DNA of 41,316 nucleotides from a virus. Positions 21,950-37,074 of this stretch are shown in pieces; position 1 is the stretch's first letter; the number at the start of each line of letters is the position of its first letter. The notes beneath the pieces are model-generated. The model did not search any database. It was not told the origin of the DNA and was given only the letters and a program-made list of their open reading frames with translations. The stretch is from the UHGV virus genome UHGV-0262680; one strand, 5' to 3'. The position numbers and the translations under genes are program-made.

Positions 21950-22024
21950 TCAGAATGCACATTCACGCCATCAGAATAAAAAACGCGTTTCTGATGCATT
22001 TCAGGGGGATTTACGGCGGGAGGG

Positions 22025-22789
22025 TTATTCACTGTCAAAACGGGCCTGTTTTGTCGCCAGCTGGCGCGCCAGCTCCTGCTCACGGTTTATGCCGGGATTG
22101 TAGTTCCAGCCCGGATCAATCCCTTCCGGCACATCTTCCTCTTCGCCCGTGCGTTTGTTCACCCAGCGGACAGTTCTGATTTCCGGCGCTTCGGTGTGAA
22201 TGGTGCCCTGTGCCGCCAGTTGCGCATATTCACCTCGGCTGACCTGACGGATGGTGCATTTGCAGCCCCAGCCGTTAGGGGCAAAATGCGTCTGCCAGAA
22301 CGGATGATCTACCGGCAGACACAGACGCGCCCATTTCACATGCTCCGCCCGGTGCTCGCGGGATGGCCCCAGCTCGTAAATCAGATACGGCATGGCCCGT
22401 TTTGTCCGCTGAATGCGTTCCCACTGGCCCGCTGCGCGGGCGGTGCGCATGTTGGTATCAAAAATCGTGCGGAGGCGGCGGTCGCTGCCCAGCTGTACGG
22501 TGCGCGTTTCTCCTGTCAGCGGATCATCCATCTCCTGTACGCCCCACCATCCGCGTTTTATCAGCAGCGGTTGCAGCGCCTCCCGGAACTCACTGAACGT
22601 CTGCCCGCTTTGCAGGGCGTCTTCCACAAGGGCTTTCACATCCGACAACAAATCCAGTTGCAGCATTTTTGCCACGGTGAAGCTGTTCCGGTGTTCTTCC
22701 CGCCACACATCCCGGTAATCAAAACCGGGGCGCAGCTTCTTCGCCTTCAGCCACGCCAGCGCCTCTTTCGGGATGAGGGTTTCACGCAT
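22025..22789 (-). CDS. Mu F-like head morphogenesis protein, about 254 aa
   Basis: Immediately downstream of the portal gene; ATG at 22789 with GGGAG upstream (the track start at 22846 is TTG). Confidence 0.65.
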   Translation of the reverse strand: MRETLIPKEALAWLKAKKLRPGFDYRDVWREEHRNSFTVAKMLQLDLLSDVKALVEDALQSGQTFSEFREALQPLLIKRGWWGVQEMDDPLTGETRTVQLGSDRRLRTIFDTNMRTARAAGQWERIQRTKRAMPYLIYELGPSREHRAEHVKWARLCLPVDHPFWQTHFAPNGWGCKCTIRQVSRGEYAQLAAQGTIHTEAPEIRTVRWVNKRTGEEEDVPEGIDPGWNYNPGINREQELARQLATKQARFDSE

Positions 22790-24353
22790 GAGCAGTGTCT
22801 CCCAGTGCTCGCGCCTTAAAGCACACCTCTGCCAGTTGCAGGGCAAAGTCGTCCGCGTTCAGCGTTTCCTGAAGCTCAGGCAGGCGTTTCAGAAAGTCAT
22901 CAAAACTGTCGCATTCCTGCGCCAGTGTCAGCACCGGGTTCGTGAACGCCTCGCCGGTTTTCTGCCAGTCACGCAGGGCATCATCCACCATCTGTGCCAG
23001 TTCGTCGGGGTGTTCCCGGTTCAGGGCGACGCGCTCACGGTTCATCGCCATATCACCTGGCACCCCGGCAGACACAGGATGCAGAACTTCCGCCCCTTCA
23101 TCCGGTTCAGCAAAACCGAACCGGTCCCGCAGCTCCGATTCCTGAACCCGCAGCCCCCGGTCAATCAGCGGCACGACGGCGTCTGTCAGCGCCTTCAGAT
23201 CTTCTGCTTCACTGATACGCAGAACAACACGGGGGTAGTGCGCCTGTGTCCCGTAGTTGGCCTCGATGTAGGGACGTACCAGATATTCGTTCAGCGTGTT
23301 AGCCAGCTGCCGCGCATCCCAGCGCACAATGTCCATGCGCACCTGATTGTGCACGTCCGCCTGTGAACGCGAACTGCCGTTATCCGTGGTCATGGTCTGC
23401 CCCAGCACAGCCTTACTGATTTGCGCATCACACCATTCCGCCATTTCACGGAACAGTGCACCGCCGTTATTCCGGCTGGCGGTTTCCTGCATCTCCAGTT
23501 GCATGGACTGCGGAATGGCACACCCGGCATCCGAGGCAATGGAGGCAATCGCGTCAATCAGCACGCGGATTTGCTCCTCCGTGGCGTTGGGGCCGTATTT
23601 CCCCACCGTGACCGGAATGCCGAATTTTTCCGCAAATGCCCACCAGTCACGTACGGTAAAGGATTTCAGCATGTACATTACCGCCACCAGACGGGCCAGA
23701 CCGTTACGCAGCGGCAGACCGGATTTCAGACGCGGCTGGTGAACAATGAATTTTCCCGGTGTCAGCGGTACGCCATCCACCGGCTCATCGTCAGTCAGCA
23801 GGCGGAACTGGCGCAGCGTGGGCTTTTCGGCTTTCAGAAAACGGGGATCAACCCACTCATAATCACGGGGCACCCAGTGGTTGTTGCGGGTGTTCCAGAG
23901 AATTTCACAGACCGCCACACCTTTTCCCAGCCCGTCGAGCAAATCAAACAACAGTTCGGGAATTTGCGGAGCGTCCATCAGCGCCCGGATGGCGTCCGCC
24001 AGCTGCACGTCGGCATCGTCATCACTGGCGGCAACCACCACCGGTTCGATACCGGCTACCGTCAGCTTGCGGGTGCGCAACACCGAAGCGTAATGCAAAT
24101 CGCGTTCTTCCATCTCTTCGGCAAGGATAAAAAAATCACGTGTGATACCGTCGGCAGCATTGCGCAGAATACCTGCCAGCCTGCCGGGATTCAGCCCGGA
24201 AGCGACACTGATGCCCGGCGAGGCCGAGCGCACACCTGCCTGACGCGGACGGGCCTGTACTTCATCGAGCCTCTCTTTTTTCAGCGTATCTTCCTCACCG
24301 GTTGCCGGGTTCAGCAGACGGCGAACGGCTCCGGCCAGTTGTTTCAGGTTCAC
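22782..24353 (-). CDS. Portal protein (Mu H-like), 523 aa, GTG start
   Basis: Directly downstream of the large terminase gene; GTG at 24353 preceded by GAGGGAGG. Confidence 0.75.
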   Translation of the reverse strand: MNLKQLAGAVRRLLNPATGEEDTLKKERLDEVQARPRQAGVRSASPGISVASGLNPGRLAGILRNAADGITRDFFILAEEMEERDLHYASVLRTRKLTVAGIEPVVVAASDDDADVQLADAIRALMDAPQIPELLFDLLDGLGKGVAVCEILWNTRNNHWVPRDYEWVDPRFLKAEKPTLRQFRLLTDDEPVDGVPLTPGKFIVHQPRLKSGLPLRNGLARLVAVMYMLKSFTVRDWWAFAEKFGIPVTVGKYGPNATEEQIRVLIDAIASIASDAGCAIPQSMQLEMQETASRNNGGALFREMAEWCDAQISKAVLGQTMTTDNGSSRSQADVHNQVRMDIVRWDARQLANTLNEYLVRPYIEANYGTQAHYPRVVLRISEAEDLKALTDAVVPLIDRGLRVQESELRDRFGFAEPDEGAEVLHPVSAGVPGDMAMNRERVALNREHPDELAQMVDDALRDWQKTGEAFTNPVLTLAQECDSFDDFLKRLPELQETLNADDFALQLAEVCFKARALGDTAHA

Positions 24354-25885
24354 AGTAAACCTCCCTCATTTTTCAGGCCGCGTGTCAGTTTCATCTGGCG
24401 GCGCGTGTTGCCTTCTTCCGGTTTCGCCGGGCGGTTCAGGCGGTGCAGCTCGTAACGGTGGCAGTCATCCTTGCTGGCAAGGAAGCCCAGGAAAATGGCC
24501 ACAGCGGCATCGCCGTGACGCTTGCGGCCATCGCTACCTTTAGTACGGGCATCGTCAATGCCGGGAACACCACGCAGTAACTGAATGGCCCCGAGGTCAT
24601 TGATCACGTCTTCATGCTTCGGAAGGATCAGCTCATCATCTTCAAACGCTGCACGGAAACGGGGCATGTTTTCGCGGTAGAACGCCACGGACAGCATCAC
24701 CTGTTCCACCTCATCGCCGTACCGCTCCGCCGCCTGTTCTGCCAGATACTGACCATTCCCCCGTGCATCCATTTTGATACCGTCACGACGGGGCAGACGA
24801 TCGCAAAGCCAGAACAGCACCTGCTCCTGCTGTTTAAACGGCATATTGCCAAGCTCAACCAGGAACGGCACCTCGCGGGTGGTGTCATCGTTCACCGTCA
24901 CAGGGGCCAGTACGGTCAGGTCACCCGAACGCGCAAAGTCTTCCCCCAGACAGTGGCGCAGGTTCTTCGGGAGTTTTTCCAGCTCGGGGCGCACCACCGT
25001 CTCCAGCCATTCCCGGATTTCTGCCCGGCGCTGGCTTTCTGTCAGTGCGTTAAATTCCGGTGTGCCGGTAAAGCGCAACACTTTCCCGGTGCCACGGGCC
25101 GCACGTTCACGCAGTGAGCGAGGGATATACGTGCCGCCGCCGTTTTTCGGGACGCAGTAGTATTCCTCCAGGGCGTCTTCGCGGGTGGCAGTATTTCTCA
25201 GCAGACCTTCTTTCCATTCCGCCTCGGCCTCCGGTGACCACACCATGCCGCGCACCTGACAGATACGCCGGTACAGCCCGTCATTGCAGGCATCATCCAG
25301 CGTGATGGTGTGAATACGGTAATCTTTTTTGCCTGCGCGGCTTTCCTGAATCAGCTGGTTAAACGGGTTGTCCACGCCGTCATGGGTAGAGATAAGGCGA
25401 ACCTTACCGCCCCACGTGGTCAGTGGTGTGACCGCCTTGAGTACCTCATCCAGTTGTTCATGAAACGCCGCCTCGTCGATGGTGACATTCCCCTGCATCC
25501 CGCGAATGTTGCCCGGATTACTGGACAGCGCCTTGACCTTAAATCCGCTGGCGAAGTACACGACGAACGTCAGAATGTCCTTGTCTTCGTCGGTGATCAC
25601 TTCCTCGCGGATTTCTTCTGCTGCCGCATTAAACGCTTTCGCCCACATTGCCACGGCGTCGATAAATTCGCGGGCCATCTCCTTATTCGAACCGATATAA
25701 AAGTGATCGCTCCCGCCGTTTTCCTTCTTCAGTGATGCGGTCAGTGCCGCATCTGCCGCTTCTGCCCAGGTTAAACCGGTACGGCGGGATTTCTCGGCGA
25801 TTTTCAGTTTTGAATCATCCGCAACCCAGCGTTTCTGATACGGCAGCAGAACATCGGATTCACTGAACGTGTTCATCTGTGTCAT
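24350..25885 (-). CDS. Terminase large subunit, 511 aa
   Basis: About 510 aa directly upstream of the portal gene; Walker-B-like VTIDEAAF motif. Confidence 0.7.
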   Translation of the reverse strand: MTQMNTFSESDVLLPYQKRWVADDSKLKIAEKSRRTGLTWAEAADAALTASLKKENGGSDHFYIGSNKEMAREFIDAVAMWAKAFNAAAEEIREEVITDEDKDILTFVVYFASGFKVKALSSNPGNIRGMQGNVTIDEAAFHEQLDEVLKAVTPLTTWGGKVRLISTHDGVDNPFNQLIQESRAGKKDYRIHTITLDDACNDGLYRRICQVRGMVWSPEAEAEWKEGLLRNTATREDALEEYYCVPKNGGGTYIPRSLRERAARGTGKVLRFTGTPEFNALTESQRRAEIREWLETVVRPELEKLPKNLRHCLGEDFARSGDLTVLAPVTVNDDTTREVPFLVELGNMPFKQQEQVLFWLCDRLPRRDGIKMDARGNGQYLAEQAAERYGDEVEQVMLSVAFYRENMPRFRAAFEDDELILPKHEDVINDLGAIQLLRGVPGIDDARTKGSDGRKRHGDAAVAIFLGFLASKDDCHRYELHRLNRPAKPEEGNTRRQMKLTRGLKNEGGLL

Positions 25886-26463
25886 GCGCTAATCCCCAGA
25901 ATGTCCCGTTTGATGGTGTCAGCCGCACCGCCTGACAGACCGCCCGTTCTGACCAGCTCTTCGGTTTTTTCTGCCATCTCCTGCGCAAACGCATCGCGGA
26001 TCGCTTTCTCGCGTTTATGGCTGGTCATGGCGGCTGCTTCCAGACGCTGGGCAACCAGCGCCAGTTGGCCCAGCGCCTTCGGTGCAACGGGCTTGTCGTC
26101 TTCTGCCATCGACATGGACGTTTCAAAGGCCAGCGTTTTTACAAACTCCATCAGCAGCTTGCCGACGTCTGACGTCGGCGCGGAACCCAGCTTTGCCGCC
26201 CAGACCTCGGCCATCTCGCGGGAGGCGCGGATTTTGGCCCCGACTTTTTCCATACGGCTGGCATAGCGGTTTAAGCCCGTCCGGCTTAACTGCATCTCTT
26301 CCGGCAGGTTGTGTTCGTCAATCAGGGTGTTGATGGCTTCGCGGATTTCTTCCTGCGTGTGCCGCTTTTCCCGCAGCATCTGATGTAACTGCTCCCGGAT
26401 GCTGTCCGGGAGTAAATCCACTTTGGAAAGACGGCCACGGGTGGGGCGTTGTTCATTTTCCAT
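25882..26463 (-). CDS. Putative terminase small subunit / DNA-packaging protein, 193 aa
   Basis: Immediately upstream of the large terminase gene. Confidence 0.4.
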   Translation of the reverse strand: MENEQRPTRGRLSKVDLLPDSIREQLHQMLREKRHTQEEIREAINTLIDEHNLPEEMQLSRTGLNRYASRMEKVGAKIRASREMAEVWAAKLGSAPTSDVGKLLMEFVKTLAFETSMSMAEDDKPVAPKALGQLALVAQRLEAAAMTSHKREKAIRDAFAQEMAEKTEELVRTGGLSGGAADTIKRDILGISA

Positions 26464-26740
26464 CTTCAGACCTCTGCGTTTTCAGACCGGCGTATATTTC
26501 TTCACGAACGGACTGAATATCCTTACTTAACAGCTTCCACAGCCGCGCACATGCCGGTGATGATCGCAGGGCGCGTTTCATGGGGGTATCCGGTGCATCC
26601 GGGTTCCAGGGCTTTCCTGTCTGTTTTTCGTATGCACGGACAATGGCGTTTTGCTCAATATCTGCCAGCACAAGGCAGTACGCCAGTTGCCGCACGACGG
26701 CCCGTTCTCCGCGACTTAACGGCTTCAGTTTTCGGGCCAT
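26453..26740 (-). CDS. Hypothetical protein, 95 aa
   Basis: ATG at 26740; in the operon between the lysis and packaging genes. Confidence 0.35.
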   Translation of the reverse strand: MARKLKPLSRGERAVVRQLAYCLVLADIEQNAIVRAYEKQTGKPWNPDAPDTPMKRALRSSPACARLWKLLSKDIQSVREEIYAGLKTQRSEDGK

Positions 26741-26742
26741 GC

Positions 26743-27036
26743 TCAGTCCCTCGCACGGGGTTTTTTAACGCCCGGAACGCCGGACAGGCCGTTTGCCACA
26801 TCCTCGCCGCTGCCGGTGATTTCAGCCACGTAACAGCCGCCCACATCAGACAGACGAACCAGCCCCTGCTCGCGAAGCCATGCAAGCTGAGTGCGCACCA
26901 CATCACGGGATACCTTATGACCGTAAGCCTGAAGGCAGGTCTGCAACACGGATTCATTCGCGCTGTCGCCACAGTCCAGCAGGGAACGCAGTAACACCAG
27001 ACGACGGTCTTCAGTGAGGATCTCTTTCATCGCCAT
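26743..27036 (-). CDS. Hypothetical protein, 97 aa
   Basis: ATG at 27036. Confidence 0.35.
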   Translation of the reverse strand: MAMKEILTEDRRLVLLRSLLDCGDSANESVLQTCLQAYGHKVSRDVVRTQLAWLREQGLVRLSDVGGCYVAEITGSGEDVANGLSGVPGVKKPRARD

Positions 27037-27341
27037 TAATTTTTTTCCTTTAACTCGTTCTCTAATAACAAATCGCTGATGCGGGATACCTGGCGGATGG
27101 ATGGCCCCAGTTCTTTGATTTCTCCCCGCAGATTGCTGATATCCAGTTGCAGGCGGTGGAACTCATCACGGTCAGGTAAATGGTGTACCTGGCTTTCCAT
27201 CACCGACACGCGGGAACGGAGTGAATCAAACTCTTCACGTTTGACGTAGGTTTTCGCCAGTATCAACTGAAGCAGGTTTATTCCTGTCATCAGCAATGCC
27301 CACAGAATGGGCCAGTTGGCTCTGATCATTTCCCAGGACAC
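27036..27341 (-). CDS. Membrane-anchored coiled-coil protein (i-spanin-like), about 101 aa
   Basis: N-terminal hydrophobic segment WPILWALLMTGINLLQLIL followed by a coiled-coil-like region; sits in the lysis region. Confidence 0.4.
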   Translation of the reverse strand: MSWEMIRANWPILWALLMTGINLLQLILAKTYVKREEFDSLRSRVSVMESQVHHLPDRDEFHRLQLDISNLRGEIKELGPSIRQVSRISDLLLENELKEKN

Positions 27342-27553
27342 GTTTTCCTCCTGCGTTCCCGAATATGCTGACAGTCAATACAGGTCACCACATCCGGCAG
27401 CGCCGCAAGGCGTTGTGCCGGAATAACGTTCCCACAGTCATTGCAGCAGCCCCGACTATGGGGCGCTTCTTTTGTCCGCGTCTGCCAGGCGTTAACGACG
27501 CTCTGACGTTCGTTCATAACCACTTCACTGATGCGGTCGATTTCGTCGGTCAT
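27326..27553 (-). CDS. TraR/DksA-type zinc-finger protein, 75 aa
   Basis: CCNDCGNVIPAQRLAALPDVVTCIDC, a C4 zinc finger typical of phage TraR-like proteins. Confidence 0.6.
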   Translation of the reverse strand: MTDEIDRISEVVMNERQSVVNAWQTRTKEAPHSRGCCNDCGNVIPAQRLAALPDVVTCIDCQHIRERRRKTCPGK

Positions 27554-28158
27554 TTCGGCCCCGCAGAGATTTTGTGACGGCTCGATTTGCTGTACCGGGC
27601 AAAGCCGTCCATGGTTCTTACTCCGAGATAGCCCAGCGCCGGGGTAAGCAACATCAGCGTGATATCCCAGTCCGGTGACGGCATATGCAGTGTGATACCT
27701 CTGGCACCGGCAATGGCTCCGGCAATCTGGCCACAGGAGAGCAACAGCACATAGGTCAGACTGCTGTAACAGGAAAGACGGGCCAGCAGCGGGCGCGTCT
27801 GGCGCACATAGCTGTCCGCAGCGTTGTCACCATTGCGGATGGTTTCCTGCTGTTCGTGATGCGCGGCCTGCTCGTCAGCCAGCACCAGCTTCTGCCGTTC
27901 CACCTCAAGCTGTTGTAACTGGACTTTCAGCGTTTCCAGTTGCATCAGTTGCTCCGGTGACAACGCCGTCAGTTGTTGTTCCAGAATGCGTTGCTGTTCG
28001 GTAACCGGCAGGCTTTCCCGGACGCTTTCCACCATACCGGCCACCGAGTCAGCGGCGGCAGATGTGCTACCACCAAACCAGCGCCCGACGGAACGAATCA
28101 GCCCCGGCCCGGCTTTCAGCAGAACAGAGGCGATGCCTGAAAGGGTTAACGGATCCAT
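27550..28158 (-). CDS. Lysis-associated membrane protein with C-terminal hydrophobic segments, 202 aa
   Basis: Coiled-coil middle region and two C-terminal hydrophobic stretches. Confidence 0.4.
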   Translation of the reverse strand: MDPLTLSGIASVLLKAGPGLIRSVGRWFGGSTSAAADSVAGMVESVRESLPVTEQQRILEQQLTALSPEQLMQLETLKVQLQQLEVERQKLVLADEQAAHHEQQETIRNGDNAADSYVRQTRPLLARLSCYSSLTYVLLLSCGQIAGAIAGARGITLHMPSPDWDITLMLLTPALGYLGVRTMDGFARYSKSSRHKISAGPK

Positions 28159-28556
28159 GAATCCCCCTTATGAAAACTGCGCTGATGTTTATAAAGTGCC
28201 GCGCAAAAGATACCGCCCAGCCAGAACGCCAGCTGATAAGGCTCCTTCAGATAAAGAAGGCCGAATGTCAGCATGAAAAGACCAACGGCCCAGACCACCC
28301 ATGACCACACGACAATTCGAAGGGAGGCGGCCCGGAAACGCCTTTTGGGTTGCAGGCGATTAGGTACGTTGCCCAGCGAGAAACTGTGAATCAGGCAGAG
28401 TGTCGCGCCGTATGCCAGCACCATGACCGCAAACGCCCGCCATCCGGCAAAACAGCTCGCCAGAAAAAGTACTGCCGACAGCCCCAGAAACGACCACTGG
28501 TACAACATAAAGCGGGAGTAAATAACGCGAACAAAAAGACTATTCATTCTGTGCAT
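28146..28556 (-). CDS. Multi-pass membrane protein (holin-like candidate), about 136 aa
   Basis: From the ATG at 28556: MHRMNSLFVRVIYSRFMLYQWSFLGLSAVLFLASCF..., with about four hydrophobic segments. Confidence 0.4.
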   Translation of the reverse strand: MHRMNSLFVRVIYSRFMLYQWSFLGLSAVLFLASCFAGWRAFAVMVLAYGATLCLIHSFSLGNVPNRLQPKRRFRAASLRIVVWSWVVWAVGLFMLTFGLLYLKEPYQLAFWLGGIFCAALYKHQRSFHKGDSWIR

Positions 28557-28767
28557 TGAGTTTTTCCTTGTACTTCTGGCACTGCCAGAAAATGTCCCGT
28601 GTATCCACGGAGTTCCAGCCACGCATGTAGTAGCTGGCGTGTGTACCGTCATGACCGGTATAGTCCACCGGCTCTGGCGGCGGACCTCCGTCCATACGAT
28701 GTAAAACCTCCTGACGCAGGCGGTCACGCCGCCCGGCTCTTAGCGAGGCATCCCAGCCTTTACCCAT
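28540..28767 (-). CDS. Hypothetical protein, 75 aa
   Basis: ATG at 28767, just after the lysin stop. Confidence 0.3.
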   Translation of the reverse strand: MGKGWDASLRAGRRDRLRQEVLHRMDGGPPPEPVDYTGHDGTHASYYMRGWNSVDTRDIFWQCQKYKEKLNAQNE

Positions 28768-28768
28768 A

Positions 28769-29365
28769 TCACCCCCGCGTGGCGGACATGATGCCTAAAG
28801 GGGTATCGATGATTTCCAGACAGGCGTCGGTCAGCTTTTCCATGCGGTTAAACCAGCCGTTCAGGTATTTACCCTGGGCGGGTTTTGACTTGATGATGTC
28901 GGCATAAAAGCGGGAACGACGGACAATGCAGCGGGCCAGCAACCAGTCCGGGGTGGACAGACTCACGGCCTTACGGGTACGCGGGCCGATGATGCCGTCA
29001 GCATCCACATCAGCGGCTTCCTGCAAAATCCTGATAGCTTTTTTAACGCCATGCTGAACGGCTGCATCGAACACAAACATCGCCACGCCATCAGGCCACT
29101 GGTCACATCCGGCAGGCAGCCAGTAATCGCGCCAGTAAATCTGCGCGACATGTTCGCGGGTTAAATCCCTGATGCGGGTATCCGGTTTACCGTCGCCGCT
29201 GACATCGGTTTTGCCGTCAATCACACCGTCGCGGCGGTCAGAAATGCCGTATTTGGTTTCGCCGCCACGGTCAGTGGGGTCATTGACATAGACGCCTTCG
29301 ATATCGGGACGCAGAATAAAATTCAGCGCATGTTCAAAGGCCGGGGAGAATTTCAGATTTTCCAT
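28769..29365 (-). CDS. Endolysin, GH108-type N-acetylmuramidase with peptidoglycan-binding domain, 198 aa
   Basis: Motifs EGVYVNDPTDRGGETKYGI and DVDADGIIGPRTRKAV, typical of GH108 plus PG-binding phage lysins. Confidence 0.7.
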   Translation of the reverse strand: MENLKFSPAFEHALNFILRPDIEGVYVNDPTDRGGETKYGISDRRDGVIDGKTDVSGDGKPDTRIRDLTREHVAQIYWRDYWLPAGCDQWPDGVAMFVFDAAVQHGVKKAIRILQEAADVDADGIIGPRTRKAVSLSTPDWLLARCIVRRSRFYADIIKSKPAQGKYLNGWFNRMEKLTDACLEIIDTPLGIMSATRG

Positions 29366-29410
29366 AAAAGCACCTGTGAAGCAGAGTTAAACGTGGTCTG
29401 CTTCATAGTG

Positions 29411-29450
29411 CCGGAGGCATAAAAAAAGCCGGATTTACCGGCTTCATTGA
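29411..29450 (-). promoter_or_regulatory. Conserved 40-bp dyad-plus-T-run element, copy 2, 46 bp upstream of the endolysin ATG
   Basis: Minus strand TTCAATGAAGCCGGTAAATCCGGCTTTTTTTATGCCTCCGG; nearly identical to copy 1. Confidence 0.5.
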
Positions 29451-29464
29451 ATTAAAAAAGATGA

Positions 29465-29944
29465 CTACTCATCACCTTTGATGGAGCAATCTATCATCAT
29501 ATTTTTCCCCATAGGGAGAAACTTTGTCTGAATGTGAAAGCCCAGAATCTTATACGTTAGTCCGTAACCTTTAACTTTTGCTGCGGAAGCCACCATGTCA
29601 ATAACTCGTTCCTGCTGTTCTTCAGTTAATTGACCAATTACAGATTCAACAACCCGCGAACATGCAGCAAAGGAGGGCAGAGCGCCTACAGGATTATCAT
29701 CAAAATCTTTTACAGTCGTCGTTGAACTAACGACCTTATTATTAATCATAAACAATCCAAACTTGCTGTGAGCAGTTTCGGTTCCACCGTTCTTAATTGA
29801 ATCGCCCCCTTTAAGAGGCTTCCAGCTATTTAGTGCAATGAGGTCTTTTTCGGCCAGGCGTTTTTTGATTACCTCTTCAGAGGGCAGCTTTGCCGCATTA
29901 GCGCAAAATACGCTCAGTAAAAACATAAGAGGAAAGTATTTCAT
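29465..29944 (-). CDS. Secreted (signal-peptide) protein of unknown function, 159 aa; lower-GC accessory gene coupled to mor
   Basis: N-terminus MKYFPLMFLLSVFCANA is signal-peptide-like. Its ATG overlaps the mor stop in an ATGA junction at 29941-29944, and it is visibly AT-richer than the flanking genes. Confidence 0.55.
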   Translation of the reverse strand: MKYFPLMFLLSVFCANAAKLPSEEVIKKRLAEKDLIALNSWKPLKGGDSIKNGGTETAHSKFGLFMINNKVVSSTTTVKDFDDNPVGALPSFAACSRVVESVIGQLTEEQQERVIDMVASAAKVKGYGLTYKILGFHIQTKFLPMGKNMMIDCSIKGDE

Positions 29945-30351
29945 GGCTCATCCTTAAATAGTTGCATTTGATATTTTCCACGCTCCAGCCTTCGCATTCT
30001 TTTGATGGCCTGATATACCGTTTTGTAGGTCACTTTGTAACGCTGCACCAACTCTGCTACGTTTTTTCCATCAAAATCACGCCAGATGCGCATGTCTCTG
30101 ATCATATTTTCCAGTATTTTCCCTTTCGGAACATATACCTGAATCCCTCCGATATGATTGCAAATTGCCACTACCAGCTCAAGAGAGTGGGCAGGGTTAA
30201 CACCAAGCCTTATCAGTTCCTGTCGCAGCAGAGCATTCAGCTCTGAAAGTAGCGCCGGGTAAACATATTTTTCCTGATAATCGTGAAGATATTCCAGAAC
30301 ACTGTCGTCCCGGAAGTCTTCGAATAAATCCTGCTCTTTCATCTGTTTCAT
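29941..30351 (-). CDS. mor: Mor middle-operon transcription activator, 136 aa
   Basis: ...ALLSELNALLRQELIRLGVNPAHSLELVVAICNHIGGIQVYVP...IRDMRIWRDFDGKNVAELVQRYKVTYKTVYQAIKRMRRL aligns along its length with Mu Mor as recalled. Confidence 0.8.
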   Translation of the reverse strand: MKQMKEQDLFEDFRDDSVLEYLHDYQEKYVYPALLSELNALLRQELIRLGVNPAHSLELVVAICNHIGGIQVYVPKGKILENMIRDMRIWRDFDGKNVAELVQRYKVTYKTVYQAIKRMRRLERGKYQMQLFKDEP

Positions 30352-30899
30352 ACAGCAATTCTCCCGCTGTTTCGTGCGCGGGCATACGCACTGGTCAGTG
30401 CATCATAGCCGCGCAGCTCCCGCCCGGTTTCGCTCACAGGTAAAGGCACACCATGTCGGGCAAAGGCGTCCCGGATGCAGCGCATATGCCACTGTTTGAG
30501 CGTTTCGAGCACAACCTGCAACGATTCCCCGTGACACCAGGCCAGAGTGGAAACACCCTGACCGCCATTACGTCTGGCCGTCAGGCGTTCAACGTATTTG
30601 TCCAGCGCGGCGTCGCTGATATCGGAAACGAAACCATCAAGAAACATCTGCTGCCAGATTTTGTAAATCTTCTCGCGTGGTGTGACATGCCCCTTAAAGC
30701 GACGGCGGGGATGTTTTTTCTGCTTCTTAAAACCACGCTCTTTCATGGCATCGAGCACCTGTTCCAGTTGTGCGACGGACAGTTCGCGGCAACTGGTTTT
30801 GCCTGTGCACTGCACCAGAAAGGCGCGGTAAGTGTCATCGTCGAGTTGTAGATCACGACGGGCGACATGAATTAATTTAATCAGGGATGTGCGATTCAT
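30348..30899 (-). CDS. gemA: GemA-like protein, about 183 aa
   Basis: ATG at 30899 after GGAGGT gives MNRTSLIKLIHVARRDLQLDDDTYRAF...; lies directly upstream of mor, as in Mu. Confidence 0.7.
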   Translation of the reverse strand: MNRTSLIKLIHVARRDLQLDDDTYRAFLVQCTGKTSCRELSVAQLEQVLDAMKERGFKKQKKHPRRRFKGHVTPREKIYKIWQQMFLDGFVSDISDAALDKYVERLTARRNGGQGVSTLAWCHGESLQVVLETLKQWHMRCIRDAFARHGVPLPVSETGRELRGYDALTSAYARARNSGRIAV

Positions 30900-31177
30900 T
30901 ATCGTACCTCCAGAAAAGGGGGCGGTGCGGCAACACCGCCAGAATCCACTCACTAAACAGAGGAAACTTTTTATGAAAAACAGTGAACAGCCTTATGATG
31001 TTGCAGGGTATGTCATTGCCTCAAGGTTGCTGATACTCCTTGTCAGAAAGGGGCTGATTACCGCAGAGGAAGGCAAAACGATCCTCGAAGCCGCAGCAAG
31101 CGGAGCGGCAGAGGCTCCGGCATTGAGAACAACGAATAATCCCATCCTGCAAATATCACAGCTAATCACTGATACCA

Positions 31178-31525
31178 TCAGTTTGTTAGACCAAGATTCT
31201 GATGAATATCAAAAGCCTCAGCCATCTGAGCATCCGTAAGAATATCTTTATTTGATAGTCCCAGCCTGCGACGAATGTATTCCTCGCGGGCTGCTTCATT
31301 TTGTAGCGCCACGGCAACTTCCACCTGGTTCATTTCACGGTTAATAATGCTCCGGACTTCTCTGGCGGTGAGGTCATGCTCAATACCATATTTAACGATA
31401 TCGTGCATACGTTCCAGCATCTTTAAATTAGCCATGACGCCATCAATATCAACTGGTGTGAATTTCATTTCGTTATTCTCTGGTTTATTCATTTCGTAAT
31501 ACCTCTTCGCAATAAAAGATTTCAT
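31178..31525 (-). CDS. Hypothetical early-region protein, 115 aa
   Basis: ATG at 31525; in the semi-essential early region. Confidence 0.4.
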   Translation of the reverse strand: MKSFIAKRYYEMNKPENNEMKFTPVDIDGVMANLKMLERMHDIVKYGIEHDLTAREVRSIINREMNQVEVAVALQNEAAREEYIRRRLGLSNKDILTDAQMAEAFDIHQNLGLTN

Positions 31526-31667
31526 TGGGATAACGTTTTTGTATGCGCTCCATCACCTGCACACATGCCTGCTCTGTGGGCCAGATTTTTTCCGTTACCG
31601 GAATGGCATCGCAGGCATCATTCCCGCAGGTGCCAACCAGCAGGACAAAGCCAATTGACTTAATCAT
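31485..31667 (-). CDS. Small putative lipoprotein / secreted peptide, about 60 aa
   Basis: From the ATG at 31667: MIKSIGFVLLVGTCGNDAC..., a signal-peptide-like start with a Cys after the hydrophobic core. Confidence 0.3.
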   Translation of the reverse strand: MIKSIGFVLLVGTCGNDACDAIPVTEKIWPTEQACVQVMERIQKRYPNEIFYCEEVLRNE

Positions 31668-32202
31668 GCTCACTGGCTTCCTGTGTTGCCGCCGGAACCG
31701 GTGAATAATCAAGAATGAGATAGCGCAGGACGTGGTCGGTGATATTCCAGCCACTGGAGCCACAAATAAAACGTCCCAGCCGGATATCGATATACGCCAT
31801 CACAAAACGGGGCATTCCCTGTTTGCACATCTCGTCGCCCACTTCTGCAACGATGTAAACCGACTCGCAGGTCAGTACGCCTGTCGCAAATTCTTTTGCC
31901 AGTGCCGGAATAGCATTGCCTTCCAGCCAGGGCAAAGAGCGGCGGAACGCGCACCATTGAGCATCATCAACATCGGGATGTTCCGTTGTTGCGTTTCGTC
32001 TTACTGGCGGCGTCGGACGAGGGCGCGGAACGTCATAAAATCCGTTGCATTCTGTCAGCATTCCGGCATCAACCGCATCACGCAGGAAATACACCATTGA
32101 CGAGGGAGGCATCTTCATTTTTTCAGCCAGAACGCCACAGGTCAGACGCCCGTAAGCCCGTAGTAATGTGCTGACACCGTTCAGAATTTTTGCATCAATC
32201 AT
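31660..32202 (-). CDS. Hypothetical early-region protein, 180 aa
   Basis: ATG at 32202; downstream of gam. Confidence 0.45.
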   Translation of the reverse strand: MIDAKILNGVSTLLRAYGRLTCGVLAEKMKMPPSSMVYFLRDAVDAGMLTECNGFYDVPRPRPTPPVRRNATTEHPDVDDAQWCAFRRSLPWLEGNAIPALAKEFATGVLTCESVYIVAEVGDEMCKQGMPRFVMAYIDIRLGRFICGSSGWNITDHVLRYLILDYSPVPAATQEASEHD

Positions 32203-32300
32203 TTTTTATTTCTCAGATATCAGATTCAGGCGCGAGCAATCCCCTGACGCATCGCGCCATAATTAAAAGATTGTGAATTAATTAAATATTAATGGTGGTA

Positions 32301-32825
32301 TTAAATACCGGCTTCCTGTTCAAATGGAATAATAGAAAAATCTTCAATGCCCGATTTAACTGTAATTCCGGCAACACCTGCGACCGCTTTCGGCTCCAGT
32401 AAAATCGCCTCCTTGTTGATTTCCTGTTTCGTGCGAATAAAACGTTGCAGGCCAAGACGCTCCAGCGTTTCCATTACCGCATCCACACCGCGAATACTTA
32501 CTGATGGTGGGCGCTGACGCCATGACACATCACCGGTGACCAGGTTTGCCGTCTTCACCTTGCCGCCGTTCGTCAGTTCGTCACGGTTCGCTTCACACCA
32601 TCCCTGAATGCCTTTTGAAAGGGTTTCAATACTGGTTTTAAGTGGCGCAATCTGTGAGGCGTATTTTTCTGTAATCTCGGCGATAGCGTCATTCATTTCC
32701 GTTTCAAGTCGTGCTGCTTCGCGTTGCAGGTCACCAATCCGGCGGATATCACATACCACGGCATCGCGGGATTGCGGAACATAAGCCGCTGCGGCGTTCC
32801 TGATTCGTTTTACTGGTTTAGCCAT
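32301..32825 (-). CDS. gam: Gam host-nuclease inhibitor (Ku-like DNA-end-binding protein), 174 aa
   Basis: MAKPVKRIRNAAAAYVPQSRDAV...GWCEANRDELTNGGKVKTANLVTGDVSWR...IIPFEQEAGI, near-identical to Mu Gam as recalled. Confidence 0.9.
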   Translation of the reverse strand: MAKPVKRIRNAAAAYVPQSRDAVVCDIRRIGDLQREAARLETEMNDAIAEITEKYASQIAPLKTSIETLSKGIQGWCEANRDELTNGGKVKTANLVTGDVSWRQRPPSVSIRGVDAVMETLERLGLQRFIRTKQEINKEAILLEPKAVAGVAGITVKSGIEDFSIIPFEQEAGI

Positions 32826-32844
32826 TAAATAAAGCTCCTGTCAA

Positions 32845-33135
32845 TTAATATTCACTGTATACAATGCTGGATACCGCACGATTGCTTAATTCCATCTTTT
32901 TGGCTATCACATGAATAGCCAGCCCTTCTTTATAAAGTTCACGACACAAATATTTGTCATGCTCACTGATTCGGTAAACACACAACGATATTCCGTGCCT
33001 TCTGGCATGTGCCCGGAGGGCGGTTGTGGCAACGTTCAGTTTTTTCGCCATTTCCTCGACGGTCATTTTCCCGACACTGGCTTCGATAAATTCCCGGTCT
33101 TCGCGTGACCATCTTTTGCGAGGGATTATCATCAT
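32845..33135 (-). CDS. Small DNA-binding (helix-turn-helix-like) early protein, about 96 aa
   Basis: ATG-ATG at 33135/33132 after GGAAGGAGG; contains two helix-turn-helix-like segments. Confidence 0.45.
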   Translation of the reverse strand: MMIIPRKRWSREDREFIEASVGKMTVEEMAKKLNVATTALRAHARRHGISLCVYRISEHDKYLCRELYKEGLAIHVIAKKMELSNRAVSSIVYSEY

Positions 33136-33151
33136 GCCTCCTTCCCTGAAA

Positions 33152-33421
33152 TTAATGTTTGGTTGCATCCGGGTTATACCGGAATAACTCGCCTTCGGCT
33201 TCCAGCCCATGTTGTCTGGCTGACTTCAACAACTCCTGGGTTGCTTTTTCAATAATTTCAGGAGCCATGCTCTTGATAATGCCTGCCATCACGTCATGTG
33301 GTCCGATTAGCCCCTTAGGAGACTGTTCTTCCAGTTGCACACTCATTCCTACAAAGAAACCTCCTTTTTTCTGAAACTCAACATCTTCCATGCGGTTAAA
33401 TTCAAAGATTACTTTTGCCAT
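33152..33421 (-). CDS. Hypothetical early protein, about 89 aa
   Basis: ATG at 33421 with GAGGAA upstream (the track start at 33475 is TTG). Confidence 0.4.
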   Translation of the reverse strand: MAKVIFEFNRMEDVEFQKKGGFFVGMSVQLEEQSPKGLIGPHDVMAGIIKSMAPEIIEKATQELLKSARQHGLEAEGELFRYNPDATKH

Positions 33422-33453
33422 TTTGTTATTCCTCACAAATAAATAAGCCGTTG

Positions 33454-33681
33454 TTAACGCCAGATAATCTGACAACCATTAAGACGGGCCGTCCATACTG
33501 AACGGGCAACCCCGGATTTATGCTCCATAATTCTGACAGCATTCCTGACAAGCTCCGGTGGCGGACAGGTGATTTCAAGCACCGGGCGGGCCACGCCCAG
33601 CCAGGATTCGTTGACGTGGCTGCCGCGCCCCTGTAACCAGGTCTTTACTTCCGTTGCCATTTTGATATTCCGTGACATCAT
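33454..33681 (-). CDS. kil: Kil-like small protein, about 75 aa
   Basis: First gene after B; ATG-ATG at 33681 after AAGGAG; size matches Mu Kil at about 74 aa. Confidence 0.45.
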
Positions 33682-33694
33682 GATTTCGCTCTCC

Positions 33695-34633
33695 TTACGT
33701 GCGCAGCAGAGTTGAAATATCAACGTCCAGGTCTAATTCACGGAAAGCCTGACGCAGATAATCTTCATTAACACGTTCACCTTTGCCGTGGGCGGTCATG
33801 GCAGCAAGGCGCAGCGAGTGGTTCAGGATGCGAAGCGCACCTGGTTTTTGCGCAATCTGCTGTAATAATTCCCGCTCATTTTCGCCGGTAATCTGCCAGG
33901 CATCCGCAATGGCCTTTACATCATCAATTTTGGTTTTATTGATTGCCGTCCGTTTGGCAATACGGGAAAACAGTCGGGCAAATTCAACCGTTCTGTTACC
34001 ACCGGTCATGTTTGAATAAACGCGGTGATTCCCCATCAGAACAAGGCCAATACGGGCGGATTCCTGCAACAGGCGGAGTTCTTCCAGAACTTCAGCGCCA
34101 AGATGATCAGCTTCGTCGATAATGACCAGCCCCTGCGTACCTTCAAGACGGCGTCTCAAAGCGCGGGAGAGTGGCCCCTTACGGCGTGGTGCGTCATTCA
34201 TTCCCAGTTCATAAGCCAGTTCAGTCAGGCATTCCAGAACACTGGCACAGGATGGGGTAACGGTGATCATCCAGACATTGTTATTGGTGCGACGAAATTC
34301 GCGGGCCGCTTCAGTTTTTCCCACACCTGGATTACCGCAGATAACAGAAATACTTTCAGTCAGGCTGGCAAAACGCATACTCGTCCAGATTTGGCGTGCT
34401 GTTCTGGTTTCCACAAAACGTGGTGGTTCTGGCAGCTCTGCGGCACGGTGATAGTTCTCCAGCCAGCGTTCCAGCGTCTGCGCAACACGTTCATTGTCGC
34501 CGTTGTACTTGTTATTCACGAATGCGCTTAACGTTCCTGCGGCCACGCCAGACTCGCGTGCAATTTGTGCATAAGTCGCTTTTTCACTTTCTACAAGCGT
34601 GCGCAGTCCTGCGCGAATATCGGAAATATTCAT
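33695..34633 (-). CDS. B: MuB ATP-dependent target-DNA activator, 312 aa
   Basis: [15 protein letters not shown]...[41 protein letters not shown]...; Walker A motif GNPGVGKT; 312 aa as in Mu B. Confidence 0.95.
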
Positions 34634-34671
34634 CTGAATAACCTCGTAATTAAATTTTGTTTAAACGTTAA

Positions 34672-36660
34672 TTAAATGGCTTTTTTACGTCTGTTCTGTT
34701 CCAGAATATCCAGCGAATGATTCAGATATTCATCACGATCAGTTTCATATTCATCATCGGGTTCCTGGTATTTCACCTGCACCGTGTTACCGGAAGGCCG
34801 GAAAATACCAACAACCCTTGATTCTGGCGCTGCTGGTTCGGCTATCTGCGGCAGCAGTTCAGCAACTTCCAGCGCGTCCATTTGCTTCTGCGCCTTAATG
34901 GCTGCTTTAGTTGCAGATTTCAGTTGTTTCTGGCGGCGGCGATATTCGCGGCCTGCCGCAGCATCATTAAATGCAACAGGTGCCAGACATTCCGCTTCAC
35001 AGATAAACCGACCGTCCAGGGTGTAGCAATAAACTGTGCTGTGTAGCTGCTGCGGATCAAACCTGACCACAACTTTTTTCACGCCTGCATTCATTAACGC
35101 CATGTTGTAATAAACGTTTTTCGCGCCTTTAAGGGAGCCGCCAACTTTAAGCGTAAACTCGCCTTTGCGTGAAACGTTCACCGCTTCGGCAGGCAGTAAC
35201 AGCATCCGTTTTTGTTCTTCGGTTGGCTTACGCACAATCGTTCTGGCGTATTCACGCTCGAAAACATCATCAAACGAGAGTTTGCCCCCGCACATTTCTG
35301 TTTCACGGCCTGTTCTGGCATTGAACATCGCCACACCTTCGGCAAGGGTTTTCAGAAACAGCTCTGCATCAACAGCGCGGTCGCCATAGTTATCAGGTTT
35401 TGCCTGCGGATTTGGCCCCGTATATGCACCAGCCAGTGCCGGATGCTTATCAACGTATTCCTCAAGCCCACCAACACCGAAAGCACGTTCAACAGGTTTT
35501 GCCTGGCCCCAGCCTTTACCGGCAACAACGCTTGTCCAGTGCATTTTCGCACCCATCAGTAAAAACAGTCCTTTTGGATCGTCCTCTTTTACCTTAAAGC
35601 GGTAGCGATTGGGCGCGCCTCCCGTCAGCCATTTATTCGCAGCACCACGGGTGTTATCAATGGTGATGTGAAAATCCTCCGGGATACCGTAGCGAGTCAC
35701 AACATCCATGAACGAGAGGCGAATTGAATCAATGTTCTCGCTCACATCGCAGCGCCAGCCCAGAATTTTTCGGGTTTTCACATCCTGCCAGAACCATGTT
35801 TTTGGACGGATCACATCACCGTTAAACCAGCGTACAAAGACGTTATGCAGATAACCGTCGCCGTTGATCCACTGCATGGCGTCCAGGTGTTCCACAGTTC
35901 GCTGCTGTGCTGGTATCAGATGCATCAGTGCATGTTCACCTTCACGACAGGCAACAACCATTGCCTCGTCCAGTTGCTGAATCCGGCGAAAGGCCGTGGC
36001 ACGGGAGGGAATACTCCAGCCATGCTCGCGGGCTGCCAGTTCCAGACGCTCATAACATTTGCGGAAGGCGGGCTTTTCCGGTCGCAGATAATCTGCAATC
36101 AGAAACTGCCAGGCATCCTCGTCAAATTCACTTTTGTGAACATTGCGACGGGATGCTCCACGTCCATCAACAAGTGCAGCCGCCCAGTCAGGTTTCGCAA
36201 ACTTCTGTACCTGGTAATACTTGTCCCGCAAAGTGGATGCGCTGACCTGGTAATGCCCTGCAACGGTCGCAAAAGCCGTTTTCGTTGAAATCCCCTGGTT
36301 CAGCATTTCGTCTGCAGCCTGAACCGCAGGCAACCATTTTTCAGCAAGTCTGCGCTGGGAATCGCTGGCGTTATCCCATTTGCTCCACAGCGCCTCGCGA
36401 TCATAATCGTGGGCTTCCAGCGTGGGGCGGGCGATTTCAAAATACCCTTGGCTTGTTTCAATTCTCCCTTGTTGCAACAGAATTTCAGCACGTAATGTGA
36501 CAGGAAATGATTTGATATTGAATTCAAATGATACACCTTTAGTTCCTGCAACCTGCCTGAACTCCCAGCCTTCTCTTTGTGCCTTACGTGTAATGTTAGT
36601 GGCTTGCTTTGGTAAACCTGCCAAACCGAGCAACTCTTTTGCTGTATACCATTCTTTCAT
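34672..36660 (-). CDS. A: MuA DDE transposase, 662 aa (D108-type N-terminus)
   Basis: From ...[49 protein letters not shown]... onward it matches Mu A as recalled; the first ~60 aa differ, as in D108. Confidence 0.95.
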
Positions 36661-36667
36661 AGCGCAC

Positions 36668-36889
36668 CTAGTATCGAGACGGCCAAATATCTTGCGGTGT
36701 CATTCCCAGTGCATCTGCAATGATTTTCTCCGCTTTCGGATATCTCTTATCCAAAGCATTTTTTAATGTTGAAGACGAAAGATGATTAGATCTTCCCAAT
36801 TCAGCTAGTGACATATTGCGTTTTCGTAGCGCTGCAACGATGTCAGCTCTGTGCCAATCTTGGCTGTTAGTTCTTTTATTCATATGCAT
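36668..36889 (-). CDS. ner: Ner DNA-binding regulator, 73 aa
   Basis: ...[23 protein letters not shown]...[22 protein letters not shown]; 73 aa as in D108 Ner. Confidence 0.85.
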
Positions 36890-37074
36890 TTCATGTAATC
36901 CTTTCAGATTCCCCCGTGAGCTACGCTATAAAGTAGCTCACGGCATATCGTGCAATGTAGTGTGGAATCACTTTCAAATCAATAGTGATTTGATAGGATT
37001 TGCCACAATTTTGCATAACGGCATGATTTTTATATGAATTTATTTTATCTCTATTGAAATCACTAGGATTTTAA
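36890..37074. promoter_or_regulatory. Divergent early/repressor promoter-operator region between ner and c
   Basis: 185-bp AT-rich intergenic region between divergent genes; contains the inverted repeats GTGAGCTAC-N8-GTAGCTCAC and AATCACT-N11-AGTGATT. Confidence 0.6.

What the first reader, a model, noticed from the sequence alone, without database searches (positions are those of the whole stretch)
29366..30351. No C late-activator gene between mor and the lysin
In Mu, mor is followed by the middle promoter and the C gene, and C activates the late promoters. Here the only ORF between mor and the endolysin is an unrelated secreted protein whose ATG overlaps the mor stop, followed directly by a hairpin element and the lysin gene. 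No Mor/C-family paralogue is evident elsewhere in the ORF track. The cascade may be shortened, with Mor acting directly on late promoters.
Basis: partly seen in the sequence, partly recalled or inferred. Interest (0 to 1): 0.6.

Follow-up and report, generated by a model that had tools for sequence, protein, structure and literature searches.

The report
Mu-like prophage with one late activator
This E. coli Mu-like prophage has lost, or never had, the second activator (C) of phage Mu's textbook early-middle-late cascade, and instead carries two copies of Mu's Mor-dependent middle promoter in front of its lysis/head and head/tail operons, so Mor most likely switches on the late genes directly.

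Summary
The window holds a complete Mu-type transposable prophage (4251-37938, minus strand). It has one Mor/C-family gene, mor at 29941-30351. It has no C gene, no C remnant, and no C-type promoter box on the coding strand.

The stretch between the secreted-protein ORF and the lysin is a near-copy of Mu's middle promoter Pm. It keeps 13 of 16 bases of the Mor-binding dyad, an identical CCGGC-T7 stretch, the same spacing to a -10 hexamer, and no -35.

A second copy (39 of 43 bases identical) lies 7.6 kb downstream, in front of the protease I-like gene, where Mu has its C-dependent promoter PI. Both copies are conserved in Raoultella, Kluyvera, Pluralibacter, Klebsiella and other E. coli prophages, which also lack C. 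Their proteins are only 60-70% identical and the flanking DNA cannot be aligned. Mu and Yersinia phage vB_YpM_5, which have Mor and C, carry the box once.

The shortened-cascade reading is therefore supported by sequence. It has not been tested by experiment. A single Mor/C-family activator appears to be the rule among Mu-like phages outside Muvirus, so this is a variant of a known system and of moderate interest. The promoters for the tail genes and for com/mom remain unresolved.

The parts
4251..37938 (-). Complete Mu-type transposable prophage (repressor, ner, A, B, gam, gemA, mor, lysis, head, tail, com, mom).
   Evidence: Both ends match the Mu attL and attR ends. The same prophage lies at other chromosomal sites in other strains. 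tblastn maps the Mu proteins onto it.
29941..30351 (-). mor, the only Mor/C-family gene. It is the last conserved gene of the early operon.
   Evidence: Pfam Mor E 7.4e-30. E 2.6e-46 to Mu Mor (1RR7) against 5.7e-12 to Mu C (9L0X). It has the Mor-type recognition helix VTYKTVYQAIKRMRRL. The six-frame HMM finds nothing else.
29465..29944 (-). orf159, an orphan secreted protein (a moron). It is translationally coupled to mor through an ATGA overlap and lies upstream of the early terminator.
   Evidence: The slot is variable: an unrelated 110-aa membrane ORF sits there in Kp4866-3 and Kluyvera, and E. coli 06-00048 has no ORF there. GC is about 42% here against about 56% in the flanks.
29418..29449 (-). 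Box 1. It holds the counterpart of the Mu Pm Mor-binding dyad (29433-29448, AATGAAGCCGGTAAAT) followed by CCGGC and T7. The hairpin AAGCCGG/CCGGCTT plus the T-run would also act as the intrinsic terminator of the early operon.
   Evidence: The Mu Mor dyad at -51..-36 and the footprint at -56..-36 come from PMC4287176 and PMC4390567.
29397..29410 (-). Predicted -10 hexamer CACTAT (29405-29410) and predicted start site (about 29397) of the Pm-type promoter in front of the lysin. There is no -35.
   Evidence: The alignment with Mu Pm runs without gaps from the box to the -10. The consensus sigma-70 scan does not list it. The start site is inferred from Mu numbering.
29378..29404 (-). Inverted repeat GAAGCAGA...TCTGCTTC that straddles the predicted start site. 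Its outer pairs reach the SD AGGTG (29371-29375).
   Evidence: The same layout with other sequences occurs in all relatives and in Mu Pm, Plys and PI.
28769..29365 (-). GH108/PG_binding_3 lysin, the first gene downstream of box 1.
   Evidence: Its homologue is the first gene after Pm in Yersinia phage vB_YpM_5.
28540..28767 (-). Homologue of Mu gp18 (E18), which is the first gene of Mu's middle operon.
   Evidence: 68% aa identity, 72% DNA identity, Pfam Phage_Mu_gp18 in relatives.
27326..27553 (-). TraR/DksA-type zinc-finger protein in the same operon. It is a candidate accessory RNA polymerase modulator (see rivals).
   Evidence: Pfam zf-dskA_traR E 1.9e-10. It is present in all Mor-only relatives.
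21860..21888 (-). Box 2, the second copy of the Pm-type element (dyad 21872-21887, AGTGAAGCCGGTAAAT, then CCGGC and T7).
   Evidence: Exact 22-bp repeat. The 43-nt repeat is 91% identical. Conserved in relatives.
21836..21849 (-). Predicted -10 hexamer CATACT (21844-21849) and predicted start site (about 21836) in front of the protease I-like gene.
20848..21810 (-). Protease/scaffold gene (Mu I-like), the first gene downstream of box 2.
10872..10917 (-). Weak third candidate Mor-type site, CAGGGACAACGGTAAATCT, with TATTAT 21 nt downstream. It lies inside the baseplate-V (gp45-like) gene.
   Evidence: It is the third-best PWM hit in the window, in E. coli 06-00048 and in Kp4866-3, always at the homologous position. 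The score lies within the shuffle range, so it is only a candidate.

Best explanation
The prophage most likely runs a two-tier programme instead of Mu's three tiers.

- **Early operon:** Transcription from the early promoter runs through gemA, mor and the moron orf159. It stops at the hairpin plus T7 at 29421-29445.
- **Promoter 1:** Mor binds the dyad that overlaps this terminator (29433-29448). As at Mu Pm, it recruits sigma-70 RNA polymerase to a promoter with no -35. Transcription would start near 29397 and run into the GH108 lysin, E18, the membrane/holin-like genes, TraR, DUF2730, gp26, terminase, portal and F.
- **Promoter 2:** A second copy of the same terminator-plus-promoter module at 21836-21888 ends that operon. 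It restarts Mor-dependent transcription into the protease, capsid and tail genes.
- **What replaces Mu's middle tier:** Pm is fused directly to the lysis/head operon, and Mu's C-dependent PI is replaced by a Pm copy.

Shown here: the absence of C, the identity and duplication of the element, its conservation, and the Mor-type recognition helix. Inferred: Mor binding, the start sites, and the extent of the operons.
For: - **One activator gene only:** A single Mor/C-family ORF is found in the window. The same holds for four relatives that could be scanned in six frames: Kp4866-3, Raoultella L008, Logan contig L014 and E. coli 06-00048 L017. There is no C remnant.
- **Match to Mu Pm:** The window element matches Mu Pm at 13 of 16 (box 1) and 14 of 16 (box 2) positions of the published Mor dyad. 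The match is 12 of 12 for CCGGCTTTTTTT, and the spacing to the -10 is the same. My numbering reproduces the published -57G and -54A.
- **Duplication:** There are exactly two copies, against 0 expected. Both sit in the only sizeable intergenic gaps at operon starts on the coding strand.
- **Phylogenetic footprint:** The 22-bp core is 100% identical in Raoultella and Kluyvera at both positions, although proteins are 60-70% identical and the flanks cannot be aligned.
- **Not just a terminator:** In Pluralibacter the I-proximal copy keeps its stem but has lost the T-run. In Kp4866-3 it has lost both stem and T-run. Both keep GAA..CGGT(A/T)AATCC and the -10, so termination is not the selected function there.
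- **Correlation with C:** Phages with Mor and C (Mu, vB_YpM_5) have the box once. Members without C have it twice, or once plus a degenerate copy.
- **Specificity:** C-type boxes are absent from the coding strand. In Mu, Mor does not activate C promoters and C does not activate Pm (PMC4287176).
- **The element is active:** It is found at many different chromosomal sites, with up to 4 copies in one genome. Late genes must therefore be expressed without C.
Against: - Nothing here shows Mor binding or Mor-dependent transcription.
- The dyad symmetry of the window sites is weaker than in Mu (3 of 5 against 4 of 5 arm positions).
- No convincing Mor box precedes the baseplate/tail-fibre genes or com/mom. 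Mor alone may therefore not account for all late expression, unless the second operon runs about 17 kb or the weak internal site at 10899-10917 is used.
- The repeated element is also a good intrinsic terminator (-12.6 kcal/mol). That could by itself explain some of its conservation.
Confidence: 0.75

Rival explanations
1. A non-homologous regulator replaces C. Mor activates only the promoter in front of the lysin. A product of that operon (the TraR/DksA zinc-finger protein at 27326-27553 or the gp26-like winged-helix protein at 26743-27036) then turns on the remaining late genes, so three tiers are kept.
For: A TraR/DksA gene sits where Mu has C, Plys and lys, and it is present in every Mor-only relative. 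It is not among the vB_YpM_5 genes listed between lysozyme and gp25. The tail and mom promoters are unassigned.
Against: Box 2 is the same Mor-type element as box 1 and is equally conserved. TraR/DksA proteins bind the RNA polymerase secondary channel and do not recognise DNA sites (general knowledge). Mu itself has gp26, so its presence is not specific to the loss of C.
Confidence: 0.1
2. The two repeats are only duplicated intrinsic terminators. Late genes are expressed by read-through or from unrecognised promoters, and Mor has no late role.
For: Both copies fold as canonical terminators: an 8-bp stem followed by T7, z about -3.4 to -3.9.
Against: The conserved block extends beyond the hairpin on both sides, covering CA(A/G)TGA upstream and the fixed-distance -10 downstream. 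The degenerate copies in Kp4866-3 and Pluralibacter lose terminator features but keep the Mor half-sites. The element is the direct counterpart of the mapped Mor site of Mu Pm. A terminator with no promoter after it would silence the late genes.
Confidence: 0.08
3. The prophage is defective for late expression, or depends on C supplied in trans by a co-resident Mu-type prophage.
For: The window shows only one element, so the rest of the genome was not examined. One hit genome holds two places.
Against: The same C-less layout occurs in at least 44 complete E. coli genomes and in four other genera. Copies above 99% identity lie at different loci, with up to 4 copies per genome. There are no C-type boxes for a foreign C to act on.
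Confidence: 0.05

Closest known systems
Bacteriophage Mu (Mor -> Pm -> C -> Plys, PI, PP, Pmom)
   Same: Mu-type ends, transposase A/B, gam, gemA and mor in the same order. GemA is 80% identical, Mor 59%, gp18 68% and Mom 97%. The Pm-type element lies immediately downstream of the early operon and overlaps its terminator.
   Different: No C, gp19, gp20, Plys, SAR endolysin or spanin homologues. A Pm-type box sits at the PI position instead of a C box. An extra ORF lies between mor and the promoter. Late proteins are only 26-51% identical.
Yersinia phage vB_YpM_5 (Muvirus, MT374853)
   Same: Pm is followed directly by a GH108 lysin homologue and then E18. This is the same start of the Mor-dependent operon as in the window.
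   Different: E18 is followed by C, then a C-type late region with a SAR lysozyme. It has only one Pm-type box.
Klebsiella phage Kp4866-3 (OK490420, unverified record) and prophages of Raoultella, Kluyvera, Pluralibacter, Klebsiella and E. coli 06-00048
   Same: The gene order is the same: gemA, mor, (moron), box, GH108, E18, membrane protein, holin-like, TraR, DUF2730. They have a single Mor and a box before both the lysin and the I gene.
   Different: The ORF in the slot after mor is different or absent. The I-proximal box is degenerate in Kp4866-3. Kp4866-3 has no com/mom.
Other Mu-like phages with one Mor/C-family gene (BcepMu, phiE255, Vibrio martha 12B12, Shewanella MuM16-1 and others)
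   Same: tblastn with the window Mor finds one Mor/C-family place per genome. Only Muvirus records show two.
   Different: They are far more distant (27-41% identity). Their promoters were not examined here, and their early regions and ends are not Mu-type.
P2/186 Ogr/B-type late control (analogy only, from general knowledge)
   Same: One small phage activator acts on several late promoters that lack a -35 and share one upstream box.
   Different: It belongs to an unrelated protein family (zinc finger) and recognises an unrelated site.

Membership tests
[quoted passage not shown] | Significant match to the family profile over the full domain. | tested here: met
   PF08765 E 7.4e-30, 103.6 bits against a cut-off of 24.9, residues 31-131 on profile positions 3-107 of 107.
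[quoted passage not shown] | Invariant linker/beta-strand residues (GG.Q.Y.P.G) and a C-terminal HTH. | tested here: met
   G68 G69 Q71 Y73 P75 G77 are invariant in the alignment with Mu Mor and Mu C. The invariant residues are listed in PMC2582627. A weak HTH_28 hit covers residues 94-121.
Mor orthologue rather than C orthologue | Closer to Mor than to C overall and in the recognition helix. | tested here: met
   59% against about 30% identity. E 2.6e-46 (1RR7 Mor) against 5.7e-12 (9L0X C). The helix is VTYKTVYQAI, against Mor VTFNTVYKAI and C LSQPQIYQII.
Mu Pm-type (Mor-dependent) promoter | A 16-bp Mor dyad centred at -43.5 that replaces the -35. | tested here: met
   By sequence only: 13 of 16 and 14 of 16 matches to Mu AGTAAAGCCGGTTAAT, and identity at -35..-24.
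Mu Pm-type (Mor-dependent) promoter | A recognisable -10 at the Mu spacing, with no -35 and no extended -10. | tested here: met
   CACTAT and CATACT align without gaps to Mu TATCCT. Neither site appears in the sigma-70 consensus scan.
Mu Pm-type (Mor-dependent) promoter | Transcription depends on Mor, and Mor footprints the site. | not testable with these tools
   This needs EMSA or footprinting and reporter assays.
Mu three-tier cascade (Mor -> C -> late) | A second Mor/C paralogue (C) encoded in the Mor-dependent operon. | tested here: not met
   Six-frame HMM, phmmer, tblastn and blastn all find none.
Mu C-dependent late promoters | A C box (CCATAACCCC core, TTAT-N5-6-ATAA) about 21 nt upstream of the -10 at late operon starts. 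| tested here: not met
   The core search recovers Mu Plys, PI and PP. In the window it finds only one antisense hit, at 9526-9535(+). No TTAT-N5-6-ATAA lies at an operon start.
Mu-type transposable phage | Mu-type terminal repeats, Mu A/B transposition genes, and insertion at variable sites. | tested here: met
   The ends read TGTATTGATTCACGTGAAGTACG... and ...CGTGCGCCGCTTCA. The flanks differ in strain NCCP 13717. A/B domains are present. Many loci are occupied.

The most novel reading that the evidence does not exclude
Every Pm-type promoter in this lineage carries an inverted repeat. Its 5' arm fills the 7 nt between the -10 hexamer and the start site. Its 3' arm lies on or beside the Shine-Dalgarno sequence or AUG of the first gene. 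Mu's own Pm, Plys and PI have the same layout. The proposed reading is a translational gate that depends on the start site. Transcripts that read through the upstream terminator contain both arms and hide the ribosome-binding site. Activator-initiated transcripts start inside or after the 5' arm and are translated. Leaky early transcription could then never produce lysis proteins. In a phage whose lysin is only one step from the early operon, this would matter most.
Probability: 0.25. Interest if true: 0.6.

Novelty: new variant of a known kind. Interest (0 to 1): 0.45.

Why it matters
Mu's Mor -> C -> late cascade is a textbook case of timed phage gene expression, and Mor and C are strictly promoter-specific. 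Here a close relative of Mu's early region runs without C. The evidence points to re-use of the Mor promoter at late operons, which gives a natural two-tier version of the circuit.

This matters in three ways.

- It offers a direct way to ask what the extra tier buys Mu, whether delay, coupling to replication, or control of mom.
- It shows how promoter modules are swapped when a regulator is lost or gained.
- It provides sequence-defined Mor sites from several genera for comparison with the new Mor/C activation-complex structures.

Most of these single Mor proteins also carry a C-terminal QxxLF motif like the clamp-binding QPDLF of Mu C. That may bear on the recently reported clamp dependence of Mu late transcription.

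Tried and rejected
- **Related loci by single protein:** The first genome-contig scan with the single Mor protein found no relative. A second scan with a Mor alignment gave six loci.
- **Fold of orf159:** The AlphaFold model from a 6-sequence alignment had mean pLDDT 56.6, so no fold search was run.
- **Known RNA families:** Rfam found nothing above gathering score in 29200-29600. The weak sroD hit is the terminator.
- **Consensus RNA structure of the lysin leaders:** This gave only 6 pairs, with some compensatory changes. The per-sequence analysis was more informative.
- **Activator box upstream of com (5198-5337):** None was found. The TTAAATATCCCCAG stretch resembles a C box, but it lies 3 nt too close to the only -10-like hexamer, and no C exists.
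- **ACCGGTTAATCCGGC at 6871-6885(+):** This is antisense to the tail-fibre gene and within chance expectation, so I set it aside.
- **Apparent gap at 17804-17968:** It is coding, for a DUF2635 protein.
- **Literature:** Searches found no open paper describing Mor-type boxes at late operons of Mor-only phages. Subscription papers such as Morgan 2002 and Summer 2004 could not be read.
- **Technical limit:** Several fetched loci were not exported to the script machine. L009-L013 were therefore checked only with the pattern and ORF tools.

Full report
**What the window is.** The minus strand of 4251-37938 is a complete Mu-type transposable prophage of E. coli.
- Mu proteins map onto it in Mu order. 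Identities are gp11 86%, GemA 80%, gp14 72%, Mor 59%, gp18 68%, gp26 61%, TerS 46%, late proteins 26-51%, Com 73% and Mom 97%.
- The ends are Mu ends. A copy identical over the 1.7-kb mor-lysin query in strain NCCP 13717 splits an SDR oxidoreductase gene and has flanks different from the window's.
- The lysis-region layout occurs in at least 44 of 5426 complete E. coli genomes. It lies at many loci, with up to 4 copies in one genome. The element is therefore active.

**Check of the observation.**
- mor (30351..29941) is a full Pfam Mor domain.
- Its stop overlaps the ATG of a 159-aa ORF (29944..29465) as ATGA.
- That ORF has a signal-like N-terminus, two invariant cysteines, no Pfam match, and only six homologous clusters.
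- 29366-29464 is intergenic.
- The lysin (29365..28769) is GH108 plus PG_binding_3.
- An HMM of Mu Mor, Mu C and the window Mor, run with filters off on all six-frame segments of at least 25 aa, hits only mor (E 1e-71; next best E 2.1). phmmer, tblastn at E<=50 and blastn of the Mu E18-to-lys DNA find no C and no remnant of it.

**What the intergenic element is.** On the minus strand, 29449-29405 reads CAATGAAGCCGGTAAATCCGGCTTTTTTTATGCCTCCGGCACTAT. Mu's middle promoter reads CAGTAAAGCCGGTTAATCCGGCTTTTTTTACGTCCTCAATATCCT.
- The published Mor site is a 16-bp dyad at -51..-36 of Pm, centred at -43.5. The Mor footprint covers -56..-36, and the promoter has a -10 but no -35 (PMC4390567, PMC4287176).
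- I placed these numbers on the Mu sequence. The placement reproduces the published -57G and -54A, and it gives the dyad AGTAAAGCCGGTTAAT.
- The window has AATGAAGCCGGTAAAT (13 of 16 matches). It is identical from -35 to -24, and its -10-like CACTAT sits at the Mu spacing.
- The hairpin plus T7 inside the element is also a good intrinsic terminator (-12.6 kcal/mol). In the Mu record, a predicted terminator likewise overlaps Pm.

**The second copy.** AAGCCGGTAAATCCGGCTTTTT occurs exactly twice in the window, against 0 expected. The second copy is at 21862-21883, inside the 214-bp gap between the F-like and I-like genes. The repeat extends to 43 nt at 91% identity. It is followed by CATACT at the same spacing. 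Mu has its C-dependent PI at this position.

**Relatives.** Related elements have the same order: gemA, mor, (variable ORF or none), box, GH108, E18, membrane protein, holin-like, TraR/DksA, DUF2730, gp26, terminase.
- They are Klebsiella phage Kp4866-3, prophages of Raoultella, Kluyvera, Pluralibacter and Klebsiella, a Logan contig, and E. coli 06-00048.
- The four relatives that could be scanned in six frames, like the window, have one Mor/C-family ORF.
- The box is present before the lysin in all of them. It is present before the I gene in those examined. The core is 100% identical in Raoultella and Kluyvera, although proteins are 60-70% identical and the flanks cannot be aligned.
- In Pluralibacter the I-proximal copy keeps its stem but has lost the T-run. 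In Kp4866-3 it has lost both. Both keep GAA..CGGT(A/T)AATCC and the -10. This argues that activator binding is selected, not termination.
- Mu and Yersinia phage vB_YpM_5, which have Mor and C, have the box once.
- In vB_YpM_5, Pm is followed directly by a GH108 homologue, E18 and then C. The window's box-GH108-E18 segment is therefore the start of a Mu-type middle operon that now runs on into the lysis and head genes.

**Absence of the C system.** The C-box core CCATAACCCC (at most 1 mismatch) recovers Plys, PI and PP in Mu. In the window it gives a single antisense hit. In Mu, Mor does not activate late promoters and C does not activate Pm (PMC4287176). The window protein is Mor-like overall and in the recognition helix.

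**Best explanation and limits.** A two-tier cascade in which Mor directly activates two Pm-type promoters is the most economical reading (confidence 0.75). Nothing here shows binding or transcription.
- The tail genes may be served by a long transcript from box 2. They may instead use a weak internal site at 10899-10917. That site is the third-best PWM hit at the homologous position in three genomes, but it lies within shuffle scores.
- For com/mom, homology to Mu starts at the com ATG. The upstream region keeps the GATC cluster, but it has neither a Mor box nor a C box.

**Rivals.** A TraR/DksA or other replacement regulator, a pure terminator role for the boxes, and C supplied in trans or a defective prophage are each given 0.1 or less. 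The reasons are listed with each rival.

**Further observations.**
1. Most single-Mor proteins end in QxxLF: QMQLF in the window, QPDLF in E. coli 06-00048, and QPPLF in Raoultella. This resembles the C-terminal clamp-binding motif QPDLF of Mu C. Mu Mor ends in QPSLL, and Kp4866-3 is an exception with QYSLD (motif from PMC12867686).
2. In 10 of 11 distinct Pm-type promoters, at least 6 of the 7 nt between the -10 and the start pair with +8..+32 of a hypothetical read-through RNA. The arm sequences differ between lineages, and the 3' arm lies on or next to the SD or AUG. Mu Plys and PI show the same layout. This suggests a start-site-dependent translational gate. It is an inference, because the start sites outside Mu are predicted.

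**Novelty.** A single Mor/C-family gene is the usual state among Mu-like phages outside Muvirus. The absence of C is therefore not surprising in itself. What is new is the evidence in a near relative of Mu that Pm modules occupy the late operon starts. I rate this a new variant of a known kind, with interest 0.45.

Noticed in passing
window 29378-29404(-) and 21816-21843(-); also L001 3213-3250 (Mu Pm), L001 4449-4485 (Mu Plys), L003 5023-5053 (Mu PI): An inverted repeat straddles the predicted or known start site. The 5' arm lies between the -10 and +1. The 3' arm lies over or next to the SD or AUG of the first gene. The layout is conserved with different sequences in all Pm-type promoters examined and in Mu Plys and PI, but not in Mu PP.
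   Followed up: partly
window 10872-10917(-); L017 28729-28775; L006 27152-27198: A weak Mor-box-like site (CAGGGA.AACGGTAAAT) with a -10-like hexamer 21 nt downstream lies inside the baseplate-V gene. It is the third-best PWM hit in three genomes. It may be a counterpart of Mu's internal PP promoter.
   Followed up: partly
window 4366-5337(-): Mom is 97% identical and Com 73% identical to the Mu proteins, yet DNA homology to Mu begins exactly at the com ATG. The upstream 140 bp keeps the GATC cluster of Pmom but has no C box and no Mor box. It is unclear how mom is switched on without C. The same upstream region occurs in other C-less E. coli prophages.
   Followed up: partly
window 29941-29970(-) (Mor C-terminus) and relatives: The single Mor proteins mostly end in QxxLF (QMQLF, QPDLF, QPPLF). 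This resembles the C-terminal clamp-binding motif of Mu C and differs from Mu Mor (QPSLL). Kp4866-3 has QYSLD.
   Followed up: partly
window 21906-21948(-): Three copies of GTTTT(T)GAAGG lie in the central F-I intergenic region, just upstream of box 2. The motif is conserved in Kp4866-3. This is the genome centre, where Mu has its strong gyrase site.
   Followed up: no
window 29400-30300: A low-GC island (about 42% against about 56%) covers both orf159 and mor. The slot after mor holds different ORFs in different relatives: a 159-aa secreted protein, a 110-aa membrane protein, or nothing.
   Followed up: partly
window 32845-33132(-): An early 95-aa ORF gives weak sub-threshold HTH hits (HTH_Tnp_1, Sigma70_r4_2, RWP-RK). 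It appears to hold two HTH-like repeats and may be an unrecognised early regulator.
   Followed up: no
window 27550-28158(-): A 202-aa protein after the membrane ORF gives a weak GTA_holin_3TM hit. RefSeq names it a TatA/TatE family subunit. Together with the GH108 lysin, it forms a lysis cassette unrelated to Mu's SAR endolysin and spanins.
   Followed up: no
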